Part shown: positions 87 through 45,805 of the stretch, piece by piece | How positions within the stretch are numbered: position 1 is the stretch's first letter | Layout: each line of letters begins with the position of its first letter | From: Escherichia phage HY03 | Strand: one strand, 5' to 3' | Sequence record: NC_031047.1 | Length of the DNA stretch: 64,000 nt | Notes under the pieces: model-generated | Seen by the model: only the letters and a program-made list of their open reading frames with translations | Told to the model about the DNA's origin: nothing | The model's database searches: none | Position numbers and translations under genes: made by a program

Positions 87-752
87 TTAAAATTTCATTT
101 TTCGACCTTTAAACCATCCTTCTGGAATTGGGTCAGTTTTCTTAATACGTTTAGAAACTTTTTCATCTAATGAATGAATCCACATCATACCAAATTGGGA
201 ATTCTTTTCACCTTGTTGGTGTTTATTTTTGGCGTGAGATTCTTTCATTTTATTAATAGTTTCAGGAGTATGATGCTTATTTAAAAATCTGCTATTATTT
301 AAAAATTTTTCCCTGTATTCAGGAGTTGACCACAAACGTTTAAATACATTTGAACCATGTTTACGATATTTTTCTTGAAGTAAAATATCATTTTTAAAAC
401 GTGACTTAAACGATTTAGCTCCTTTTAAACTAGCGTCTTTCTTCTGGTTTAGCATCCCAGGAATATTTATATGGTCCCATCCACCTTCACCACCTAATTT
501 CAAATTATAAACATCAGGGCGCTTTAAAAACTCTTCAGTCACAATATTCTTTTCTGACTCAAACATAGAGGTTTTATCGTCAAAGAACTCTAATATTTCT
601 TTAGAAAAATTTTCTATACCATACTTATCTTGAGCTCTTTTTAATAATTTACCAGAACCCATATATCCATCATCTAAATTTTCGGTAGAATGCACACCAA
701 TATAAATTTTATTATTAATTTTATTTGTTATTTTATAAGTGTAATGGAACAT
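87..752 (-). CDS. segB: GIY-YIG homing endonuclease (Seg-type)
   Basis: 221 aa; N-terminal GIY-YIG motifs (KIYIGVHST, YMGSGKLL); adjacent to tRNA cluster as segB is in T4; paralogous to ORF 42446..43063. Confidence 0.65.
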   Translation of the reverse strand: MFHYTYKITNKINNKIYIGVHSTENLDDGYMGSGKLLKRAQDKYGIENFSKEILEFFDDKTSMFESEKNIVTEEFLKRPDVYNLKLGGEGGWDHINIPGMLNQKKDASLKGAKSFKSRFKNDILLQEKYRKHGSNVFKRLWSTPEYREKFLNNSRFLNKHHTPETINKMKESHAKNKHQQGEKNSQFGMMWIHSLDEKVSKRIKKTDPIPEGWFKGRKMKF

Positions 753-1297: not shown

Positions 1298-1930
1298 TTA
1301 TTTATTACGTGAAAAAGACTGTTCTATCAATTCTGGACACTTTCGTTCTATCCATTTTCTAGCTTTTTGTGGGCTTATACCTATTATTTTAGCAGCTTTA
1401 CTAACCCATCCAAATTTAGAATAATCGATTTTAACTAATTCTTCGTAAATTTCATCAGTTAAAATCTTTTCATTAATATTTACCAGTAAATGATATAATT
1501 TGTTATCATTAGCAATTTTAATGAATCTTTTATAGTTTCCGCCTTTACTTAAACCTAATGAAGTAATTGCAGATGATATAGTAGCCGAATTTAATAATGC
1601 GTTTAAAATTTCTTCATCACTAACATTATAACGCTTTTTATTATTTTTAATATTTTTACCAGCAAAAGTATCAGTTTGCGAATGACAGTTTGGACATAAT
1701 AATCTTAAATTTGATTTAAGATGATTTTTGTTATTTCCATCAATATGGTCTAATTGCAGAACAATATGCTTATTTTGCCATTTTGAAATTTTACAAATTG
1801 CACACTCATATGGAAAAATATTTTCTTTTATTATTTTGTCTTTCAGCTTTCCTGTACTAAAATTTGGATGTTTTCCTTCAAAAATTTCAGCTAATTTAGT
1901 ATCCATAATATGATTCCCAATTATTAACAA
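1298..1930 (-). CDS. HNH homing endonuclease
   Basis: 210 aa; HNH motif CAICK...LQLDHIDGNNKNHLKSNLRLLCPNCH; abuts tRNA-Leu where T4 carries tRNA-Gln. Confidence 0.65.
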   Translation of the reverse strand: MLIIGNHIMDTKLAEIFEGKHPNFSTGKLKDKIIKENIFPYECAICKISKWQNKHIVLQLDHIDGNNKNHLKSNLRLLCPNCHSQTDTFAGKNIKNNKKRYNVSDEEILNALLNSATISSAITSLGLSKGGNYKRFIKIANDNKLYHLLVNINEKILTDEIYEELVKIDYSKFGWVSKAAKIIGISPQKARKWIERKCPELIEQSFSRNK

Positions 1931-5408: not shown

Positions 5409-6083
5409 TTAATTTATTAGACTTCTTAAACGAGCAGAAGTCATAAATGGAAATTTTTCTAAAGTTGGCTTTCGCCAATATCTTGGATGACAAGTTGATT
5501 TAAAATCAAGAACAATTTTCTTTGCTTCATCAATAGTGTTAACTCCAAAGTTATCTAACATTATTTTCTTTTCTTTTTCCCACCGTTTATTAGCTAAAGC
5601 AGATTGAAGCTTTTTGTTTTTAAATGTGTCATTTTTTCTAGAATGAGTTGTTCCTTGTGTCGGACTCCATCCTCTTCCTAAAATAAATCCCTCAGGAATT
5701 ATATCTCCATCATGTAATTTTATACATCTTTTACCATTATTATAATATTTTCGTCCAGTTTGTGTATTTGAAATATTATTTGCATGTTTTCTTTTTAACC
5801 AACCATAAACTTTATTATTTCTCCTAACATATTTAGTTGAAACCGTCATTTTTATGGCTGCATAAGATAATTTTAAAGAATTTGGGTGTATTTTTACTAA
5901 TAGCTGATGTGCAACATAATGCTCTTCTGGAGTTAAATCAACCAAGTTAGAAGCATCATTACTACCGCCTAAACATTTCGGAATAATATGATGTCTTTCT
6001 TTATATCCAGTAAGGGCTCTATTGCGAGCCCTATCAATTAGTGAATTATAAATTTTTTCATAATTCATCGTACATTGCTCCAA
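5409..6083 (-). CDS. HNH homing endonuclease (Mob-type)
   Basis: 224 aa; HNH motif [29 protein letters not shown]; inserted between genes 3 and 2; N-terminal domain paralogous to ORF 44571..45263. Confidence 0.7.
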
Positions 6084-6892
6084 ACTTTGTTTGCAGAGAA
6101 ACGTTTTCCTTTGGAGTAGAAGCTTTGGAGTGGCATCAACACAACGTTCGCCCAGTCTTTCGGGGCGATTTCAACAAGGCTACCCATAATATTACCGGGG
6201 ATATATGCCTTAATCATTTGGTCTGCACCCCTAAATCCTTTCACTTGACTCCAATCAATTTTTAATTTCGTTTTATTAGTAATAGTAGGTGTATTTGAAT
6301 ATTGCTTTAAAAGCTCTTCTAGAAATTGCTGACGAGCTTTAGGTGGAATATAGTGCAAGTTTAATCCATACATTAAATTATGCTTACCTAAACCAAGGTA
6401 AATTATCAAAGGAAATTTATCCCAGTAAGGAAGAGTTTCCTTGTGTTTAGCATCATAAGCAAAAGCATATATTCGTCCCGGCTGCGGGCGAACAACCTTA
6501 TGTCCTTTTACTTGCTTAATAGTTTCAGCAAACCACTTTCTGGTTTTATTATTAATTGCTGCGCCTTCATTACGAATTTTATCGCGCAATGTTTGTCTGA
6601 ATGAATTTATCATAAGCAGTTGTCTTTCTTGCTTATTGAGTTTATTCATTGGTTTTGATTCAAGCTTTTGAATCTTTTCAGCCGTTTTAATTCCTGAAGC
6701 ATATTTTGACATTGCCGAAGTAAACGTAGAGTATTTGATTCCTCTTTCTTCAGCAAATTGCTTTCCTGTCATTCCTTTTGCTTTGGCCTTTTTATATTCA
6801 AGACCTATCTGAATCCATTTCTTTTCGTTTAATGATTGCTTAACCTTTGGAACTTGGGGAGTGCTTTCATTAATTATTTGAAAAATAGCCAT
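6065..6892 (-). CDS. 2: gp2 DNA end-protector protein
   Basis: 275 aa; T4 gp2-like size and position between 3 and 4. Confidence 0.8.
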
Positions 6893-24781: not shown

Positions 24782-28942
<4,161 letters not shown>

Positions 28943-30950: not shown

Positions 30951-31607
30951 TTGATTATGGGGCTTCGGCCCCTATTCTCGAGGAAACAAGTGATTATTTC
31001 TAAGTTTGTTAAAGTGAAAATTGTACCATCAAATTTTAAACATTATCAATCAAAGGGTTATAAATTAACACCTCTTGGAGCGGTTAAACATGGATTTAGG
31101 TATTATGAAATTGATGTTAAAGTTGAAGACATTAAAGGTAGTACCGCGTATGTAAAATGCCGTTGCGATAAATGTGGAATTGAATATAACCAACGCATTG
31201 GAAGAAACACTGATATTTGTCGTGATTGCCGTCATAAAGATAAAATGCGCAATAATTCATATGGTTCCGCGAATAAAGGAAAAACAGTAGAATGTATGCA
31301 TGGCGTAAATCATCCAAGATGGAACCCAAATAAATCTGAAATGCGTGAATATATTTCATTGGTATATAAAGAAACTCGTAAGCATAAGAAAATTTGGTCA
31401 AAATGGCCAAATGCTGATAAAATAGGAGTGTGCGGTACAAAAGGTGCTTACCAACTTGATCATAAGGTATCTATCAAATACGGTTTTGATAATTTAATTC
31501 CTGCTGAAATAATTGGCGGTATTAATAATTTAGAAATAATCACTTGGGAATCTAACCGAGAAAAGTCAAAAAGAAATAGTGTAGATCTTTGGGATTTACT
31601 AGAATGA
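30951..31607 (+). CDS. HNH homing endonuclease
   Basis: C-terminal HNH motif (YQLDHKVSIKYGFDNLIPAEIIGGINNLEIITWESN) plus Cys-rich region CRCDKCG...CRDCRH; true start probably the GTG near 30991 after GAGG. Confidence 0.65.
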   Translation: MIMGLRPLFSRKQVIISKFVKVKIVPSNFKHYQSKGYKLTPLGAVKHGFRYYEIDVKVEDIKGSTAYVKCRCDKCGIEYNQRIGRNTDICRDCRHKDKMRNNSYGSANKGKTVECMHGVNHPRWNPNKSEMREYISLVYKETRKHKKIWSKWPNADKIGVCGTKGAYQLDHKVSIKYGFDNLIPAEIIGGINNLEIITWESNREKSKRNSVDLWDLLE

Positions 31608-38986: not shown

Positions 38987-39990
38987 TTAACTTACCAATT
39001 CAATCCAAGCCGGACGAAGTACATCTTGTACCATTTTAACTAATTCCTTTTTAACCAAAGAAGGATTATCTGCTTGAGTTAGAGTAATACCTTCACGAGA
39101 AGTTTCTTCCAAAATATCTTGAACAGTTAGTCCCATCACCTTTCCAAAATCCTTCGAACCAATTTCACCAATTTTAGAAATAACGTTATTTACTCGGTTC
39201 AGTGTAACGTAGCAAGCTAAAATTCCCACCAATTTGTTATCAGCTTCTGATAGTTCAACTTTAGCTTTAATAGGCTTATCAGACTTTTTCTTTTCACTAA
39301 ATTTGGAATTCTTGCATTTGATGGCTACACGATTTCCATTATGAAGCCAAGAAGGATAACAAGGTTTCAATACATATCCTTCAGCGGTAAATACTTCGCC
39401 TTTGGCTTCAGCTTTCCAAACACATTTGTTAGCGTCAACTAATCCAGCATGGTCTACCGTAAAATTATAATCCTGTACGACAGAATCTAAATCATTTGGC
39501 AATTTAATAAGTTCTTCAAATTTACCACGACCTAAAAGTGGAGCCATTTTAAATTTAAATGTATTACAGAATGATTCCATCATATAATCATCGACATAAG
39601 TCACATCACCACTTTCTGTAGTGACAATAATGTCAAATACATAAAAATCTTTACGCCATAATCGACATTCTTCTGAATGCCAGGTCCAGCGAATTCGCCA
39701 AAGACTTGATAAGATACAACCGCTGAGGTTTCCATAATATCTTGTACTGCTTTAATAGAATCTTCGTAATTCTTTAGAATAATTTCATACCCAAAGAAAT
39801 CTTCAGCAGGAAGAATCGGTCCAGTACGTTTAGCGCAAGTTACTTTATCACGCTCAATAATCAATGAGAAATTTGTGCCGTGAATCTTTTCACGAGCTAC
39901 CCACTCCCCACCAGTCAATCCCAAGCTATAAAGTTTTTCAATAAATTTAGAGTTGTAATGATTTTCAAGACTGCTATACTTTTTAAACAT
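38987..39990 (-). pseudogene. rnlB: RNA ligase 2 (rnlB) interrupted by a frameshift
   Basis: ORFs 39601..39990 (129 aa, ligase nucleophile motif KIHGTN) and 38987..39604 (205 aa) together give 334 aa = T4 Rnl2, but the reading frame shifts around 39640-39660. Confidence 0.6.
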
Positions 39991-41715: not shown

Positions 41716-42396
41716 TTATTTTAATGTTACGAAAGAAGAGTTGCGTGTTTCACGAATTAAAACTGATCCGTCACGGTTAATGTAATAAATTAAGCTAAAT
41801 AAAGTTTGGTGTGCTGACGCATGTTCAAAACTAGTTGGGTGAGATTTCCAATCTGGGGTTTCAGCAATCCATTGATAAATCCACCAAGGAACAGTGCAGA
41901 ATCCTGGATTTTTTCCAATCAGCTGAAGATTCGGACTAAAGTTTTCCGGAAGAGTAAATACAGACGGCTTTTCAGATTCAATAATCTCAGCTACAGCCTG
42001 TTCGAATTTTTCTTCAACAAAAGGAGTATCTTCAATTAAAACAGTGGTATTTTCAGGAATTTTATCCGTTTCTACTACTTCAATTTTAATGTCAGATTTA
42101 ACCGGAGAATCAATCAGAAGTGCTGCCTCTGGATTGACTTCTTCATCGTCATATTTTAATCCGTCTGCGGCATCAGCAGCATCAATTAAGTCTTTAATAG
42201 ATAACCCATCAGTCTCTGGCATAGGTTCACTAGCGAGCTTCTGGAGAGCTTCTTCAATATCATTAACGATATTATCAAAAGATTTATTCTTTTTGACCTT
42301 TATACCAAACTGTTCAGCATATTCAGCTAATTTAGCTTTAGCTTCTTTATTATCATCAAGAGCCTTCAGCTCTGCAATATAATCTTTATCTATCAT
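41716..42396 (-). CDS. inh: Inh, inhibitor of prohead protease
   Basis: 226 aa; conserved position beside hoc. Confidence 0.75.
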   Translation of the reverse strand: MIDKDYIAELKALDDNKEAKAKLAEYAEQFGIKVKKNKSFDNIVNDIEEALQKLASEPMPETDGLSIKDLIDAADAADGLKYDDEEVNPEAALLIDSPVKSDIKIEVVETDKIPENTTVLIEDTPFVEEKFEQAVAEIIESEKPSVFTLPENFSPNLQLIGKNPGFCTVPWWIYQWIAETPDWKSHPTSFEHASAHQTLFSLIYYINRDGSVLIRETRNSSFVTLK

Positions 42397-42445
42397 AATA
42401 TTTCCTCAGTATAAATATAGATATATTTATTACTCGGAAAATAGT

Positions 42446-43063
42446 ATGTACCACTTTGTATATGAAACAACAAATCTAATAAATGGTAAAAAGTATATAG
42501 GAAAACACTCTACTGATGACTTGAATGATGGTTACCTTGGTTCCGGTAAGGCAATTCAGCAGGCTATAAAGAAATATGGTGAAAACAATTTCTCTAGAAC
42601 AATACTAAAAGAGTTTAAAACTTCCGAAGAAGCGTACATGTATGAAGAAGAAATTATAACTCCTGAACTAATAAAAAGCAAAAATTATTATAATATGAAA
42701 CCTGGTGGAATTGGTGGAATTGTTATGACTACAGAGGTTATAGCAAAGATGAAAGAATCTTCCGCTAAAAGATTTGAAAACTCACCAGGCACGGTATTAG
42801 GTAAAACTTGTTACACCAATGGAACTAAAAATATTTTTATTAAACCTGGAGAACTTGTTCCAGAAGGATTTGTAAAAGGGATGGTTCATCCTAATAGAAA
42901 GTCCAGAAAAGGATGTAAAGTCAAACCGACTACCACAGGAACTTTTTGGGTCAATAATGGCGCAATAAATAAATTAATACAACCAGACGGTATTATTCCC
43001 GACGGATTTATTAAAGGTCGTCTCATGAAAAGAGATTCTAAAGGCAAATTTAGTAAGGCATAA
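42446..43063 (+). CDS. segE: GIY-YIG homing endonuclease SegE
   Basis: 205 aa; GIY-YIG motifs KKYIGKHST, YLGSGKAI; T4 segE position upstream of uvsW. Confidence 0.8.
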   Translation: MYHFVYETTNLINGKKYIGKHSTDDLNDGYLGSGKAIQQAIKKYGENNFSRTILKEFKTSEEAYMYEEEIITPELIKSKNYYNMKPGGIGGIVMTTEVIAKMKESSAKRFENSPGTVLGKTCYTNGTKNIFIKPGELVPEGFVKGMVHPNRKSRKGCKVKPTTTGTFWVNNGAINKLIQPDGIIPDGFIKGRLMKRDSKGKFSKA

Positions 43064-43065
43064 TT

Positions 43066-44574
43066 ATGGATATTAAAGTACATTTTCACGACTTCAGTCA
43101 TGTACGCATCGATTGTGAAGAGAGCACGTTCCACGAATTAAGAGATTTCTTTTCGTTTGAGGCCGATGGATATAGATTTAACCCTCGCTTCAGATATGGC
43201 AACTGGGATGGACGAATCCGTCTTTTAGATTATAATCGTCTTCTTCCATTCGGCTTAGTCGGGCAAATTAAAAAGTTCTGTGATAACTTTGGCTATAAAG
43301 CCTGGATTGACCCACAAATTAACGAAAAAGAAGAATTATCAAGAAAAGATTTTGATGAATGGCTTTCTAAATTAGAAATCTATTCAGGAAATAAAAGAAT
43401 TGAACCACACTGGTATCAAAAAGATGCAGTGTTCGAAGGATTAGTTAATCGTCGTAGAATTCTTAATCTTCCAACATCCGCTGGTAAATCGTTAATTCAA
43501 GCTTTGCTTGCGCGATATTATTTGGAAAATTATGAAGGTAAAATTCTTATCATTGTTCCAACAACTGCTCTAACAACTCAGATGGCTGATGACTTCGTTG
43601 ACTATCGTTTATTCAGTCATGCAATGATAAAGAAAATTGGTGGCGGAGCATCAAAAGATGATAAATATAAAAATGATGCACCAGTCGTTGTTGGTACATG
43701 GCAAACTGTAGTAAAACAACCGAAAGAATGGTTCTCACAGTTTGGAATGATGATGAATGATGAATGCCATCTTGCTACAGGAAAAAGTATTTCATCTATC
43801 ATATCAGGTTTAAATAACTGCATGTTCAAATTTGGTCTATCTGGTTCATTACGTGATGGCAAAGCCAATATCATGCAGTATGTTGGAATGTTTGGTGAAA
43901 TATTTAAGCCAGTAACGACTTCTAAGTTAATGGAAGATGGACAAGTAACTGAGCTAAAAATTAATAGTATTTTTCTTCGCTATCCCGATGAGTTCACTAC
44001 TAAATTAAAGGGAAAAACTTATCAAGAAGAAATAAAAATTATTACGGGGCTTAGTAAAAGAAATAAATGGATCGCTAAATTGGCTATTAAGCTTGCACAA
44101 AAAGATGAAAACGCTTTTGTCATGTTTAAACACGTATCGCACGGTAAAGCTATTTTCGATTTAATTAAAAATGAATACGATAAAGTTTATTACGTATCAG
44201 GGGAAGTTGATACCGAAACCCGCAACGTAATGAAAACCTTAGCTGAAAATGGTAAAGGAATAATTATAGTAGCTAGTTATGGTGTATTTTCTACTGGTAT
44301 TTCAGTTAAAAATCTGCATCACGTTGTTTTAGCGCACGGTGTTAAATCAAAAATCATTGTATTACAAACAATCGGTCGTGTATTACGTAAGCATGGTTCT
44401 AAGACAATAGCAACGGTCTGGGACCTCATTGATGACGCGGGCGTAGTTTCTAAATCAAAAACATCTTCTAAAAAATACTCGCATTTAAACTATCTTTTAA
44501 AACATGGACTTGATCGTATTCAGCGTTATGCTGATGAGAAGTTTAATTATGTGATGAAAGAGGTTAAACTTTGA
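43066..44574 (+). CDS. uvsW: UvsW SF2 DNA helicase
   Basis: 502 aa; helicase motifs (PTSAGKS, DECH); T4 UvsW sequence recognised. Confidence 0.9.
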   Translation: MDIKVHFHDFSHVRIDCEESTFHELRDFFSFEADGYRFNPRFRYGNWDGRIRLLDYNRLLPFGLVGQIKKFCDNFGYKAWIDPQINEKEELSRKDFDEWLSKLEIYSGNKRIEPHWYQKDAVFEGLVNRRRILNLPTSAGKSLIQALLARYYLENYEGKILIIVPTTALTTQMADDFVDYRLFSHAMIKKIGGGASKDDKYKNDAPVVVGTWQTVVKQPKEWFSQFGMMMNDECHLATGKSISSIISGLNNCMFKFGLSGSLRDGKANIMQYVGMFGEIFKPVTTSKLMEDGQVTELKINSIFLRYPDEFTTKLKGKTYQEEIKIITGLSKRNKWIAKLAIKLAQKDENAFVMFKHVSHGKAIFDLIKNEYDKVYYVSGEVDTETRNVMKTLAENGKGIIIVASYGVFSTGISVKNLHHVVLAHGVKSKIIVLQTIGRVLRKHGSKTIATVWDLIDDAGVVSKSKTSSKKYSHLNYLLKHGLDRIQRYADEKFNYVMKEVKL

Positions 44575-45263
44575 ATTATAAATTAATATACGATAATTTA
44601 ATTAATAGAGCCCAGAATCGGGCTCGCCTTAATGGATACACTGAAACTCATCATATAATTCCTAGATGTATGGGCGGTACAGATGATAAGTGTAATTTGG
44701 TAGAACTAACAGCTGAAGAGCATTTTATAGCTCATAAACTTTTAGCTAAAATTCATCCAAACCATTACGGTATAATTAAAGCCGTTATATGTATGGGGAT
44801 GAATTCAAAAACTCATGAAAGACACGTTAATAAATCTTACGCCTGGGAACGTCGTAAAATGGCAGAACTTCAATCAGGTGAAGGTAATCCATTTTACGGA
44901 AAACACCATACGGAAGAACATAAACAATATATGTCAAAACTCATGAAAAATCGTCCAATTACGTGGGGAAGTAAAATTAGTAAAACTAAAAGAATGAACC
45001 CAACAAAATGGACTGAAGAAGCTAAAAGATTGCATTCTATCAATCAATCAGGTAAAAATAATGGCATGTATGGAAGGAAACATTCCGCTAAATCTATTCA
45101 GAAAATTAAAGATAACATGCCAGATAATTCAGGAGCTAATAACCCAGCTGCTAAACCTATAGAAGTAAATGGTGTTAAGTATAAATGCATGAAAGATGCT
45201 TCTAAAGCTACTGGATTATCAATGTACAAACTAAGAATACTTAGAAAAACAGTTAATTTATAA
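44571..45263 (+). CDS. HNH homing endonuclease (Mob-type)
   Basis: 230 aa; HNH motif HHIIPRCMGGTDDKCNLVELTAEEHFIAH; N-terminal 65 aa closely parallel ORF 5409..6083. Confidence 0.7.
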   Translation: MNYKLIYDNLINRAQNRARLNGYTETHHIIPRCMGGTDDKCNLVELTAEEHFIAHKLLAKIHPNHYGIIKAVICMGMNSKTHERHVNKSYAWERRKMAELQSGEGNPFYGKHHTEEHKQYMSKLMKNRPITWGSKISKTKRMNPTKWTEEAKRLHSINQSGKNNGMYGRKHSAKSIQKIKDNMPDNSGANNPAAKPIEVNGVKYKCMKDASKATGLSMYKLRILRKTVNL

Positions 45264-45276
45264 GGGCTTCGGCCCT

Positions 45277-45519
45277 TTGGAGAAAAAGATGTTACTAGAA
45301 TTTAAACAATTTCTTTATGAAGCTTCTATTGATGAATTTATGGGTAAAATTGCCTCTTGCCAAACATTAGAAGGTCTAGAAGAACTTGAAGCTTATTACA
45401 AGAAAAGAGTTAAAGAAACTGAATTAAAAGATACTGATGACATCTCTGTGAGAGATGCTTTGGCAGGAAAAAGAGCTGAATTAGAAGATTCAGACGATGA
45501 AGTAGAAGAAAGCTTTTAA
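45277..45519 (+). CDS. uvsW.1: UvsW.1-like small acidic protein
   Basis: 80 aa; position downstream of uvsW (here separated from it by the HNH gene). Confidence 0.6.
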   Translation: MEKKMLLEFKQFLYEASIDEFMGKIASCQTLEGLEELEAYYKKRVKETELKDTDDISVRDALAGKRAELEDSDDEVEESF

Positions 45520-45574
45520 ATTAAAAAAGGCCCAACCAAAAAGGAAGGGCCAAAACTATAGACTAAAGGTCACA

Positions 45575-45805
45575 CTATAGCAAAAGTTGTGTTTCATTTA
45601 ATTGTTCTTCCGAACTTTCTGAAACTGGTAGTTCTTTAATGTAATTATAGCAAGGCCCAGGATGTACAGGACCTTTGTCTGTTTCAACAACCAATGCAGA
45701 ATCGATTGGAGTTTTACAGACAACACAAATCTTATCTGACATGATTGTCTCCTTTTGAATATAGTAATATTTATAAACCCATTTTAATCCGCATTTCTTG
45801 TACAC
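45575..45805 (-). CDS. hypothetical Cys-containing small protein
   Basis: ORF upstream of uvsY; CVVCKTP...PGPCYNY suggests a zinc-binding motif; start may be internal Met. Confidence 0.45.
   Translation of the reverse strand: MYKKCGLKWVYKYYYIQKETIMSDKICVVCKTPIDSALVVETDKGPVHPGPCYNYIKELPVSESSEEQLNETQLLL

What the first reader, a model, noticed from the sequence alone, without database searches (positions are those of the whole stretch)
44571..45263. HNH endonuclease separates uvsW from uvsW.1 and is a paralogue of the gene 3/2 insert
A 230-aa HNH ORF overlaps the uvsW stop (ATGA) and pushes the small acidic uvsW.1-like ORF about 700 bp downstream. Its first ~65 residues parallel ORF 5409..6083 almost position by position (MNYKLIYDNLINRAQNRAR...HHIIPRCMGG vs [19 protein letters not shown]...[10 protein letters not shown]) while the C-terminal halves diverge, suggesting a shared catalytic module with swapped DNA-recognition domains.
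Basis: seen in the sequence. Interest (0 to 1): 0.45.

Follow-up and report, generated by a model that had tools for sequence, protein, structure and literature searches.

The report
Selfish HNH endonuclease gene beside uvsW
This is an ordinary selfish "homing endonuclease" gene of the phage-T4 Mob family, wedged into the last codons of the helicase gene uvsW; it is already annotated in phage T6 and 46 other sequenced relatives.

Summary
The ORF is real: 44571..45263, + strand, 230 aa. One detail is wrong. The start is TTG in a TTGA overlap with the uvsW stop; the ATGA overlap belongs to the paralogue after gene 2.

The N-terminal 98 residues of the two proteins are 55% identical (E 4e-34). 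The C-terminal halves are unrelated (best E 0.35). Both proteins belong to the T4 Mob family of free-standing HNH homing endonucleases and are about as close to T4 MobE and MobB as to each other.

The uvsW copy carries two NUMOD3 repeats and a probable I-TevI-type helix-turn-helix. The gene 2/3 copy carries a 34-residue motif shared with the GIY-YIG enzyme SegE, followed by a helical domain with no solved relative.

The element is present in 47 of 522 matching phage records and absent from T4. Orthologues 56-70% identical occupy the same junction in other T4-like lineages. dN/dS is about 0.05.

The insert (net 689 bp) lies four codons inside uvsW. It brings a recoded UvsW tail that holds its own ribosome-binding site and start codon. 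It travels with a roughly 120-bp divergent tract of uvsW.

Verdict: a known kind, already annotated, of low to moderate interest.

The parts
42410..42417 (+). T4 late-promoter consensus TATAAATA. It is the only exact match upstream of segE-uvsW-HNH-uvsW.1, so the HNH gene looks like a promoterless cassette in a late polycistronic unit.
   Evidence: The function is inferred from the established T4 late-promoter consensus.
42446..43063 (+). segE, a GIY-YIG homing endonuclease gene on the other flank of uvsW. Its C-terminal repeats carry the motif shared with the gene 2/3 HNH protein.
   Evidence: Pfam SegE_GIY-YIG E 6.6e-9; same position as T4 segE; motif match.
43066..44574 (+). uvsW helicase gene (502 aa), with a recoded tail ...YVMKEVKL* instead of ...YVMKTVNL*.
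44439..44553 (+). Insert-linked divergent tract in the uvsW 3' end. It holds all 31 differences fixed between 4 insert-bearing and 3 insert-free alleles and is the candidate region for the endonuclease's target and immunity site. The most altered patch is 44445-44481 (VVSKSKTSSKKYS instead of VKPKSANxKKKYV).
   Evidence: Exactly 47 records carry this tract at >=95% identity, the same number as carry the insert.
44560..45248 (+). Inserted segment, net 689 bp relative to insert-free alleles. The junction is ambiguous by the triplet AAA, so the insert is either 44557-45245 or 44560-45248.
   Evidence: BLAST and alignment against T4, L008 and L009
44560..44563 (+). GAGG ribosome-binding site for the HNH ORF, 7 nt before the TTG. 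It is created by the recoded UvsW codon (ACA to GAG).
   Evidence: Read from the sequence. The same GAGGT-N-TTGA arrangement occurs in phage PSD2002.
44571..45263 (+). Mob-type HNH homing endonuclease ORF, 230 aa, TTG start, 4-nt TTGA overlap with the uvsW stop.
   Evidence: (phrog_655, E 1.6e-61)
44571..44864 (+). HNH (beta-beta-alpha-metal) nuclease domain, residues 1-98. Conserved residues are H27, H28, N42, H51 and H55.
   Evidence: Alignments A1 and A2; AF2 strands 25-28 and 43-46 plus helix 48-61; profile hit to the EcoKMcrA HNH domain, E 4.9e-4.
44608..44625 (+). GC-rich stem-loop GAGCCC-AGAAUC-GGGCUC inside the ORF (codons 13-18), at the position of the T4 mobE internal terminator but without a U-tract.
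   Evidence: z-score -3.2; strongest 30-nt fold in the gene; comparison across genes; mobE terminator described in PMC2790892.
44850..45125 (+). Two NUMOD3 repeats (residues 94-122 and about 157-185) with the linker between them.
   Evidence: Pfam NUMOD3 E 7.7e-14, two stretches; alignment to I-TevI residues 39-95.
45147..45251 (+). C-terminal two-strand plus two-helix unit (residues 193-227), likely an I-TevI-type helix-turn-helix.
   Evidence: Pfam I-TevI_DNA-bd E 0.03, below its cut-off; 1i3j phmmer E 0.006; AF2 secondary structure; Foldseek.
45249..45263 (+). The displaced original last four codons and stop of uvsW (ACA GTT AAT TTA TAA = TVNL*), now read as the end of the HNH ORF.
   Evidence: Identical to the uvsW end in insert-free alleles L008 and L009. 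The same arrangement, with the local tail MKQVDL*, occurs in PSD2002.
45264..45275 (+). GGGCTTCGGCCC tetraloop hairpin between the displaced uvsW stop and uvsW.1. It is also present in insert-free alleles.
   Evidence: -9.3 kcal/mol, z-score -1.5
45289..45519 (+). uvsW.1 (76 aa), with its own GGAG ribosome-binding site at 45279-45282.
   Evidence: Pfam UvsW-1 E 1.5e-30
5409..6068 (-). Paralogous Mob-type HNH homing endonuclease gene between genes 2 and 3 (219 aa). Its ATG at 6068-6066 overlaps the gene 2 stop (ATGA). It replaces 9 bp of the T4 sequence with 668 bp (5412-6079).
6014..6031 (-). Stem-loop GGGCUC-GCAAUA-GAGCCC at the equivalent codons of the paralogue. The arms are swapped relative to the uvsW copy.
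   Evidence: z-score -2.8
6073..6128 (-). Divergent patch in the 3' end of gene 2 next to the paralogue. It includes the Ser codon change TCA to AGC, which creates a GGAG ribosome-binding site.
   Evidence: 49 records carry the patch at >=95% identity against 35 with the insert.

Best explanation
The ORF at 44571..45263 encodes an intact, selectively maintained, free-standing HNH homing endonuclease of the T4 Mob family.

It has no promoter of its own and is carried on the late segE-uvsW-HNH-uvsW.1 transcript. It is translated at a low level from a TTG start that overlaps the uvsW stop, using a GAGG ribosome-binding site built into the recoded last codons of uvsW.

The protein has three parts. 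The N-terminal domain of about 98 residues is the nuclease. The extended C-terminal part (two NUMOD3 repeats and a probable I-TevI-type helix-turn-helix) recognises DNA.

In a mixed infection with a relative that lacks the insert, the enzyme nicks or cuts that relative's uvsW 3' region. The most likely place is the highly conserved stretch encoding VKPKSANxKKKYVH, about 90-115 bp upstream of the insertion point. Repair from the insert-bearing genome then copies in the endonuclease gene together with the roughly 120-bp variant uvsW tail. That variant tail also protects the carrier from self-cutting.

The gene 2/3 insert is a family paralogue built the same way, but with a different C-terminal DNA-binding region, and it homes to a different site.

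Shown here: the ORF, the homology, the domain content, the insertion anatomy, the presence/absence polymorphism, the linkage with the variant tract, and purifying selection.

Inferred: nuclease activity, the target site, the expression mode, and homing itself.
For: Family membership:
- BLASTP between the two window proteins gives E 4e-34.
- Both match phrog_655 'homing endonuclease' (E 1.6e-61 and 9.9e-59).
- In the alignment with T4 MobB-E, 27 columns are invariant, including HH, N and H..AH.
- N-domain identities to the Mob proteins are 44-61%.

Domains:
- NUMOD3 scores above Pfam's cut-off.
- I-TevI DNA-binding domain 1i3j is matched by sequence (E 0.006 single sequence, 2.4e-4 profile) and is the Foldseek top hit with probability 0.99. 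The AF2 model has pLDDT 88.7.

Mobility signature:
- The insert is present in 47 of 522 matching phage records, including T6, Yersinia phage PST and ACG-C40. It is absent from T4 and T2.
- Orthologues 70%, 59% and 56% identical sit at the same uvsW|uvsW.1 junction in other T4-like phages, including a Morganella phage.
- All 31 fixed insert-bearing versus insert-free differences fall in 44439-44553. Divergence there is about 20 per 100 bp against a background of 0-5.
- Exactly 47 records carry that tract at >=95% identity.

Functional constraint: dN/dS is 0.04-0.12 between alleles.

Expression: there is one late-promoter consensus upstream. The GAGG-7 nt-TTG arrangement is conserved in a 59%-identical orthologue.

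Precedent: T4 MobE is promoterless, has a start overlapping the stop of nrdA, has an internal 5' hairpin, nicks nrdB of T2 at a distance from its own gene, and co-converts flanking markers (PMC2790892; PMC2988022).
Against: - No biochemical or genetic test exists for this enzyme, and I found no paper on it in the held library.
- The Pfam HNH (16.8 against 21.4 bits) and I-TevI_DNA-bd (14.7 against 27 bits) single-sequence scores are below the curated cut-offs.
- The target-site assignment is weak. One insert-bearing lineage (L024) keeps the insert-free type KSANAKKKYV patch at protein level. Linkage of a variant tract to the insert could also be mere hitch-hiking from a divergent donor.
- TTG starts are weak, so the protein level might be very low.
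- The internal hairpin lacks the U-tract that makes the mobE hairpin a terminator.
Confidence: 0.85

Rival explanations
1. The gene is a decaying or inactive remnant of a homing endonuclease that merely persists because deleting it would damage the uvsW tail or uvsW.1 expression.
For: T4's own mobA and I-TevIII are defective (annotations). The start codon is a weak TTG. A truncated 146-aa relative exists in phage UFV-AREG1 (P0008). The insert now supplies the uvsW stop codon, so imprecise loss would be harmful.
Against: The ORF is full length in all alleles examined. dN/dS is about 0.05. The catalytic H, N and H residues are conserved. Full-length orthologues are kept at the same site at 56-70% identity across genera.
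Confidence: 0.07
2. The two window proteins arose by a recent duplication, and their C-termini simply diverged beyond recognition. No exchange of DNA-binding modules took place.
For: They are each other's best match among the proteins compared for the N-domain (108 bits against 100 bits to MobE). The alignment loosely pairs their extreme C-terminal helices.
Against: Each C-terminus matches a module found in unrelated GIY-YIG nucleases: NUMOD3 and helix-turn-helix as in I-TevI, and the SegE repeat motif. Each protein has its own orthologue lineage at its own site at 52-70% identity, so the split is old. The N-domains are no closer to each other than to T4 MobE, MobB or MobD.
Confidence: 0.05
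3. The nuclease has been co-opted. Its main role is not its own spread but exclusion of competing phages, or a function coupled to UvsW and UvsW.1 in late recombination-dependent replication.
For: It is co-transcribed and probably translationally coupled with uvsW. It has been retained at the same junction for a long time in several genera. Marker exclusion by T4 Seg and Mob enzymes is documented (PMC2988022).
Against: About 90% of close relatives do without it. The presence/absence pattern with a tightly linked flanking tract is the classic signature of homing. Nothing ties it functionally to UvsW.
Confidence: 0.08

Closest known systems
T4 MobE (free-standing HNH homing endonuclease between nrdA and nrdB)
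   Same: The N-domain is 51% identical. Both genes are free-standing and promoterless, have a start codon overlapping the stop of the upstream gene, and have a GC-rich hairpin about 30-60 nt into the ORF. Full-length MobE relatives (213 aa, for example P0106) also carry NUMOD3 repeats.
   Different: The insertion site is different (uvsW 3' end). The C-terminal end differs: a helix-turn-helix instead of the Cys-rich tail of full-length MobE. The start is TTG instead of ATG. The hairpin lacks a U-tract. The target of the window enzyme is unknown.
The same gene in phage T6, Yersinia phage PST, ACG-C40, EC121, ZN18 and others (annotated 'homing endonuclease', 'mobD' or 'putative mobile endonuclease E')
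   Same: 97-98.8% nucleotide identity, with the same junctions, the same TTG start and the same uvsW variant tract.
   Different: Only allelic differences (for example 5 amino-acid differences from T6). None of these copies has been characterised experimentally, as far as the held library shows.
I-TevI DNA-binding domain (PDB 1i3j) and the NUMOD3 motif
   Same: Residues 157-216 align with I-TevI residues 39-95, that is the NUMOD3 helix plus the helix-turn-helix.
   Different: I-TevI is intron-encoded and has a GIY-YIG catalytic domain. Here the module is attached to an HNH domain, and the NUMOD3 unit is duplicated.
I-HmuI of Bacillus phage SPO1 (HNH nicking enzyme with NUMOD-type repeats and a helix-turn-helix; recalled from memory)
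   Same: The same overall N-to-C order: HNH, extended linker repeats, helix-turn-helix. It is a nicking enzyme, as MobE appears to be.
   Different: I-HmuI is intron-encoded. No significant sequence or Foldseek match to it was returned here, so the resemblance is architectural only and was not tested.
HNH gene between genes 2 and 3 of RB32, RB33 and others (the window's paralogue) and T4 SegE
   Same: The paralogue is 99% identical to the RB32 and RB33 copy. Its residues 98-131 match both SegE C-terminal repeats. It has the same insertion style: it sits in the last codons of the upstream gene, the start overlaps the new stop, and the ribosome-binding site is created by recoding.

Membership tests
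T4 Mob-type free-standing HNH homing endonucleases (MobA-E) | N-terminal HNH nuclease domain with the family motif NY..IY..L ... E.HHIIP..GG.D..NLV.LT..EH..AH.LL.KI | tested here: met
   27 invariant columns in the alignment with T4 MobB-E. 44-58% N-domain identity, E 1e-21 to 2e-33. phrog_655 E 1.6e-61.
T4 Mob-type free-standing HNH homing endonucleases (MobA-E) | Free-standing (not inside an intron or intein), located between conserved phage genes, and present or absent among close relatives | tested here: met
   47 of 522 matching records carry it. T4, T2 and others lack it, with otherwise collinear flanks.
T4 Mob-type free-standing HNH homing endonucleases (MobA-E) | Distinct C-terminal region, presumed to bind DNA, fused to the conserved HNH domain | tested here: met
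   NUMOD3 x2 plus a helix-turn-helix in the uvsW copy. SegE-type motif plus a helical domain in the gene 2/3 copy. No similarity between the two C-termini.
T4 Mob-type free-standing HNH homing endonucleases (MobA-E) | Site-specific nicking or cleavage of the insert-free allele, and preferential inheritance in mixed infection | not testable with these tools
   Indirect signatures only: the linked divergent tract, site conservation across genera and dN/dS 0.05.
T4 Mob-type free-standing HNH homing endonucleases (MobA-E) | Promoterless cassette expressed from upstream transcription, with a start overlapping the upstream stop (as for mobE) | tested here: inconclusive
   The 4-nt TTGA overlap and the embedded GAGG are seen directly. 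The only exact late-promoter consensus is at 42410. No transcript data.
Pfam HNH (PF01844) | Score at or above the curated gathering threshold (21.4 bits) | tested here: not met
   16.8 bits, E 0.0079. Superfamily membership rests instead on the Mob alignment, on profile hits to the EcoKMcrA and group II intron HNH domains (E 4.9e-4 and 5.7e-3) and on the predicted beta-beta-alpha core.
NUMOD3 (PF07460) | Score at or above the curated threshold (20.4 bits) | tested here: met
   51.8 bits, E 7.7e-14, two stretches.
I-TevI-type C-terminal helix-turn-helix (PF20987) | Score at or above the curated threshold (27 bits), or a clear structural match | tested here: inconclusive
   Pfam 14.7 bits, E 0.03. 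1i3j phmmer E 0.006 covering the helix-turn-helix. Foldseek probability 0.99 but E 0.14 and target-normalised TM-score 0.45.
mobE-type internal 5' terminator | Stable stem-loop about 27 nt after the start codon, followed by a U-tract | tested here: inconclusive
   The stem-loop is present at the equivalent position and is the strongest local fold in 7 of 7 MobE-like genes. There is no U-tract in the window copies, and no + strand terminator was called there. Synonymous-codon resampling gives p = 0.10 and 0.04 for the window copies, 0.001-0.003 for four others and 0.37 for the gene 2/3 orthologue L026.

The most novel reading that the evidence does not exclude
The insert may be more than an ORF. 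It may be a three-part mobile cassette shared by MobE-like endonuclease genes at three or more different genomic sites.
- Part 1: a recoded replacement tail for the host gene that embeds the endonuclease's own ribosome-binding site and a deliberately weak or coupled start.
- Part 2: a covarying GC hairpin at nt ~35-60 of the ORF that throttles expression. It is known only as the T4 mobE terminator and here lacks a U-tract.
- Part 3: a linked immunity patch in the host gene. The KSAN-to-KSK.S change in UvsW recurs in three insert-bearing lineages and would mark the cleavage site.

If this is right, target sites and regulatory logic of uncharacterised free-standing endonucleases could be read directly from comparative sequence.
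Probability: 0.3. Interest if true: 0.4.

Novelty: already known. Interest (0 to 1): 0.22.

Why it matters
As a finding it mainly confirms textbook biology. T-even phage genomes are littered with free-standing homing endonuclease genes that combine a few nuclease domains with interchangeable DNA-binding modules.

The practical value is modest:
- It explains why the uvsW 3' end and UvsW C-terminus differ between otherwise near-identical phages.
- It gives a concrete and cheap experimental target, about 120 bp of uvsW, for mapping the specificity of an uncharacterised Mob enzyme.
- It shows that uvsW in this phage is flanked by two different endonuclease genes (segE and the HNH gene), each with its own linked variant patch. 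That makes uvsW a likely hotspot of gene conversion in mixed infections.

Tried and rejected
- The T4 RefSeq record could not serve as the insert-free reference at the junction. It carries the known sequencing error that fuses uvsW and uvsW.1 into 587 aa (PMC1524935; PMC6486255). Insert-free alleles L008 and L009 from IMG/VR were used instead.
- Idea: the uvsW/uvsW.1 split is itself a scar of an old endonuclease-gene insertion. A search with UvsW.1 found 75 homologues, all 52-96 aa and none fused to a helicase, so nothing supports it (the search is word-based and of limited sensitivity).
- A Foldseek search of the whole uvsW-HNH model gave weak E-values, as expected for an extended multi-domain model. 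Only the I-TevI hit is meaningful.
- Single-sequence PDB searches found no I-HmuI match.
- No intrinsic terminator was called on the + strand in 42300-45700.
- Literature searches for a description of this particular endonuclease found none in the held library.
- The window's phage could not be identified. The best records are about 96-97% identical over 24 kb, so it is a mosaic Tequatrovirus not in the collection.
- Rejected: that the hairpin follows merely from the R-A-x-N-R-A peptide. Orthologues with different peptides (RSRKASK, ERRKASP, KGLERGL) keep a hairpin with different stems. For the two window copies alone, however, codon-resampling support is only p = 0.10 and 0.04.
Full report
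**1. What is there**

The window is a T4-like (Tequatrovirus) genome segment. Around the finding the gene order is:
- inh (41716-42396, - strand)
- segE (42446-43063, +)
- uvsW (43066-44574, +)
- the 230-aa ORF (44571-45263, +)
- a GGGCTTCGGCCC hairpin (45264-45275)
- uvsW.1 (45289-45519, +; Pfam UvsW-1, E 1.5e-30)
- uvsY.-2, uvsY.-1, uvsY, 25 and 26 on the - strand

The one factual error concerns the overlap. The sequence reads ...GAG GTT AAA CTT TGA. The ORF starts at a TTG (44571-44573), and the 4-nt overlap is TTGA, not ATGA. A GAGG lies 7 nt upstream of the TTG.

The ATGA overlap is a property of the paralogue. Its real start is the ATG at 6068-6066, which overlaps the TGA of gene 2 at 6067-6065.

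**2. The similarity is real**

- BLASTP of the two proteins gives 54/98 identities (55%), E 4e-34.
- The C-terminal halves compared alone give nothing. The best hit is E 0.35 over 17 residues.
- A tblastn of either protein against the whole window finds no third copy of this family.

**3. Family**

- Both proteins hit phrog_655 'homing endonuclease' (E 1.6e-61 and 9.9e-59).
- Both align from residue 2 onward with T4 MobB, MobC, MobD and MobE. There are 27 invariant columns, including H27, H28, N42, H51 and H55.
- N-domain identities among all six proteins are 37-61%. The window pair scores 55% (108 bits), while the uvsW copy against MobE scores 51% (100 bits). They are therefore family-level paralogues, not a special pair.
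- Single-sequence Pfam HNH scores are below the curated cut-off (16.8 and 16.5 bits against 21.4).
- Profiles built from 121 homologues each hit the EcoKMcrA HNH domain (E 4.9e-4 and 3.7e-3). The uvsW-copy profile also hits the HNH domain of a group II intron maturase (second profile).
- The AF2 models (pLDDT 88.7 and 91.0) show the two-strand plus helix core.

**4. C-terminal modules**

The uvsW copy:
- It has two NUMOD3 repeats (Pfam 51.8 bits against a cut-off of 20.4).
- Residues 157-216 align with the I-TevI DNA-binding domain, PDB 1i3j. The match covers the NUMOD3 helix and the helix-turn-helix. Scores are phmmer E 0.006, profile E 2.4e-4, and Foldseek top hit with probability 0.99.

The gene 2/3 copy:
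- It has no NUMOD3 repeat.
- Residues 98-131 ([27 protein letters not shown], a predicted beta-hairpin) match both C-terminal repeats of the neighbouring GIY-YIG enzyme SegE (E 3e-6 and 1e-4; first seen).

Both recognition modules are shared with GIY-YIG enzymes. This is the established picture for Mob proteins (Edgell et al. 2010, PMC2988022).

**5. Distribution**

- Megablast of 43900-45600 finds 522 phage records, and 47 of them contain the insert. Examples are T6, Yersinia phage PST (annotated 'mobD'), ACG-C40, EC121, ZN18 and W143 ('putative mobile endonuclease E') at 97-98.8% identity. The rest, including T4 and T2, lack it.
- The gene 2/3 insert is present in 35 of 517 records, including RB32 and RB33.
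- The protein database holds full-length relatives of the uvsW copy at 55-70% identity. The three looked up all lie between uvsW and uvsW.1 with a 4-nt start/stop overlap: L024 (70%), Escherichia phage PSD2002 (59%) and Morganella phage Rgz1 (56%).
- A 59%-identical relative of the other copy lies between gp2 and gp3.
- Each lineage is therefore tied to its own site across T4-like genera.

**6. Insertion anatomy**

The insert-free alleles L008 and L009 read ...TAC GTA ATG AAA ACA GTT AAT TTA TAA GGGCTTCGGCCC..., which encodes YVMKTVNL*. T4 RefSeq has the known sequencing error at this point (PMC1524935; PMC6486255).

The window reads ...TAT GTG ATG AAA | GAG GTT AAA CTT TGA ... AGA AAA | ACA GTT AAT TTA TAA GGGCTTCGGCCC.

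From this comparison:
- The net insertion is 689 bp, with a 3-nt AAA ambiguity at the junction, and it lies four codons inside uvsW.
- The insert supplies a replacement UvsW tail (EVKL* in place of TVNL*). The new codons create the GAGG ribosome-binding site and the TTG/TGA overlap.
- The displaced original codons TVNL* now terminate the endonuclease ORF.
- PSD2002 has the same design. Its uvsW ends MKEVQI* with a TTGA overlap, and its endonuclease ends in the local uvsW tail MKQVDL*.
- L024 and Rgz1 use a plain ATGA overlap.
- The gene 2/3 copy is built the same way. Here 668 bp replace 9 bp at the end of gene 2. The Ser codon TCA becomes AGC, which creates GGAG. The new stop overlaps the ATG.

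**7. Linked variant tract**

I aligned 4 insert-bearing alleles (window, T6, L007, L010) and 3 insert-free alleles (T4, L008, L009).
- All 31 fixed differences fall in 44439-44553.
- Divergence there is about 20 per 100 bp, against 0-5 elsewhere and 1-3 downstream of the insert.
- A database search with that 124-bp tract finds exactly 47 records at >=95% identity, the same number as carry the insert.
- Phage OES_C-2 is an insert-free recombinant. It keeps only the distal patch (VVSKSKTSSKKYS) and has the insert-free sequence from about 44487 onward.
- Across genera, insert-free alleles encode a conserved VKPKSAN.KKKYVH. One of them (L012) reads VKPKSLNTKKKYTH.
- Three of the four insert-bearing lineages have KSK.S at the same place. 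L024 does not.

I read this tract as the co-converted flank and the best candidate for the target and immunity site. MobE similarly nicks T2 nrdB at a distance from its own gene (PMC2790892). This step is inference, and I give it roughly 40% confidence.

At the gene 2/3 site the analogous patch (6128-6073) is found in 49 records against 35 with the insert, so the linkage there is looser.

**8. Functionality and expression**

- dN/dS between alleles is 0.04-0.12, so the protein is under purifying selection.
- The only exact T4 late-promoter consensus upstream is at 42410-42417, before segE. The gene is probably part of a late segE-uvsW-HNH-uvsW.1 message, like the promoterless mobE.
- A GC-rich stem-loop lies at 44608-44625, codons 13-18 (z-score -3.2).
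- The paralogue has one at the same codons with its arms swapped (6031-6014, z-score -2.8).
- In 7 of 7 MobE-like genes examined, the most stable 30-nt fold in the whole gene lies at this position. These are four uvsW-site genes, two gene 2/3-site genes and T4 mobE. Their stem sequences and encoded peptides differ. MobB, MobC and MobD lack it.
- In T4 mobE this hairpin is an experimentally shown weak terminator (PMC2790892). The window copies lack the U-tract.
- Codon-resampling support is p = 0.10 and 0.04 for the window copies, 0.001-0.003 for four others and 0.37 for the gene 2/3 orthologue L026. I treat it as a probable conserved regulatory element of unproven function.

**9. Verdict**

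This is a real, intact, Mob-type free-standing HNH homing endonuclease gene. It is already annotated as such in T6 and many other records, although I found no experimental paper on it in the held library.

Novelty is low.

The insertion anatomy, the linked tract and the family-wide hairpin are useful details for anyone who wants to map this enzyme's target, but they fit known biology.

Noticed in passing
window 26087-28939 (+): The large terminase gene 17 is split into two ORFs. ORF 26087-26980 covers Terminase_6N profile positions 2-106. ORF 27554-28939 covers positions 105-214 plus Terminase_6C. Between them is a 199-aa ORF (26967-27566) with TnsA-like and endonuclease-I (PD-(D/E)XK) hits (Pfam E 1.9e-9; phrog_15427 'endonuclease' E 2.8e-102). 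The same arrangement is found in 15 of 398 matching phage records (for example Salmonella phages pSe_SNUABM_01 and SG1, and Escherichia phage JEP6), annotated as two terminase pieces plus an endonuclease. An essential ATPase domain split by a mobile nuclease gene seems more unusual than the finding I was given.
   Followed up: partly
window 30951-31607 (+): A 218-aa ORF with a TTG start begins immediately after the gene 18 stop and lies before gene 19. There is no Pfam hit, and it matches phrog_5104 (unknown function). By eye the translation shows a Cys cluster (CRCDKCG...CRDC) and a C-terminal D-H...N...N pattern reminiscent of an HNH motif, so it may be another mobile nuclease gene.
   Followed up: partly
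window 1298-1930 (-) and tRNA cluster 7-1291: A 210-aa HNH endonuclease ORF of a different family (phrog_14736, E 6e-124) abuts tRNA-Leu. ARAGORN finds 7 tRNAs (Arg, Met(cat), Thr, Ser, Pro, Gly, Leu) but no tRNA-Gln, which T4 has next to tRNA-Leu.
   Followed up: partly
window 87-752 (-): A segB-like GIY-YIG endonuclease gene lies between tRNA-Arg and tRNA-Met(cat). It is 32% identical to the window's SegE.
   Followed up: partly
window 43066-43266 (+): The first ~200 bp of uvsW form a second polymorphic patch. Alleles with segE upstream (window, T4, T6) share one haplotype. Alleles whose upstream region does not align with the window's segE (L007-L010) differ from it at about 26 + 12 positions per 100 bp. 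uvsW is thus flanked by two endonuclease genes, each with its own linked variant tract. The two occur independently, since ZN18 and G8 have the HNH gene without segE.
   Followed up: partly
window 38987-39604 (-): The rnlB (RNA ligase 2) ORF is only 205 aa, against 334 aa in T4. The Pfam RNA_ligase match covers only profile positions 103-170, so the N-terminal part of the nucleotidyltransferase domain appears to be missing.
   Followed up: no
L023 2897-3595 (-) (Logan contig DRR827159_75102): In a relative of phage PSD2002, a 232-aa ORF with no Pfam hit sits between the DUF2685 gene (uvsY.-2) and uvsY. It may be yet another insert in this neighbourhood.
   Followed up: no
L021 (Escherichia phage OES_C-2, PQ642263.1) 2501-2640: This insert-free uvsW allele is a recombinant. 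It carries the distal, insert-type patch (VVSKSKTSSKKYS) joined to an insert-free-type proximal 70 bp and tail. It would be a natural test substrate for locating the endonuclease's target.
   Followed up: yes
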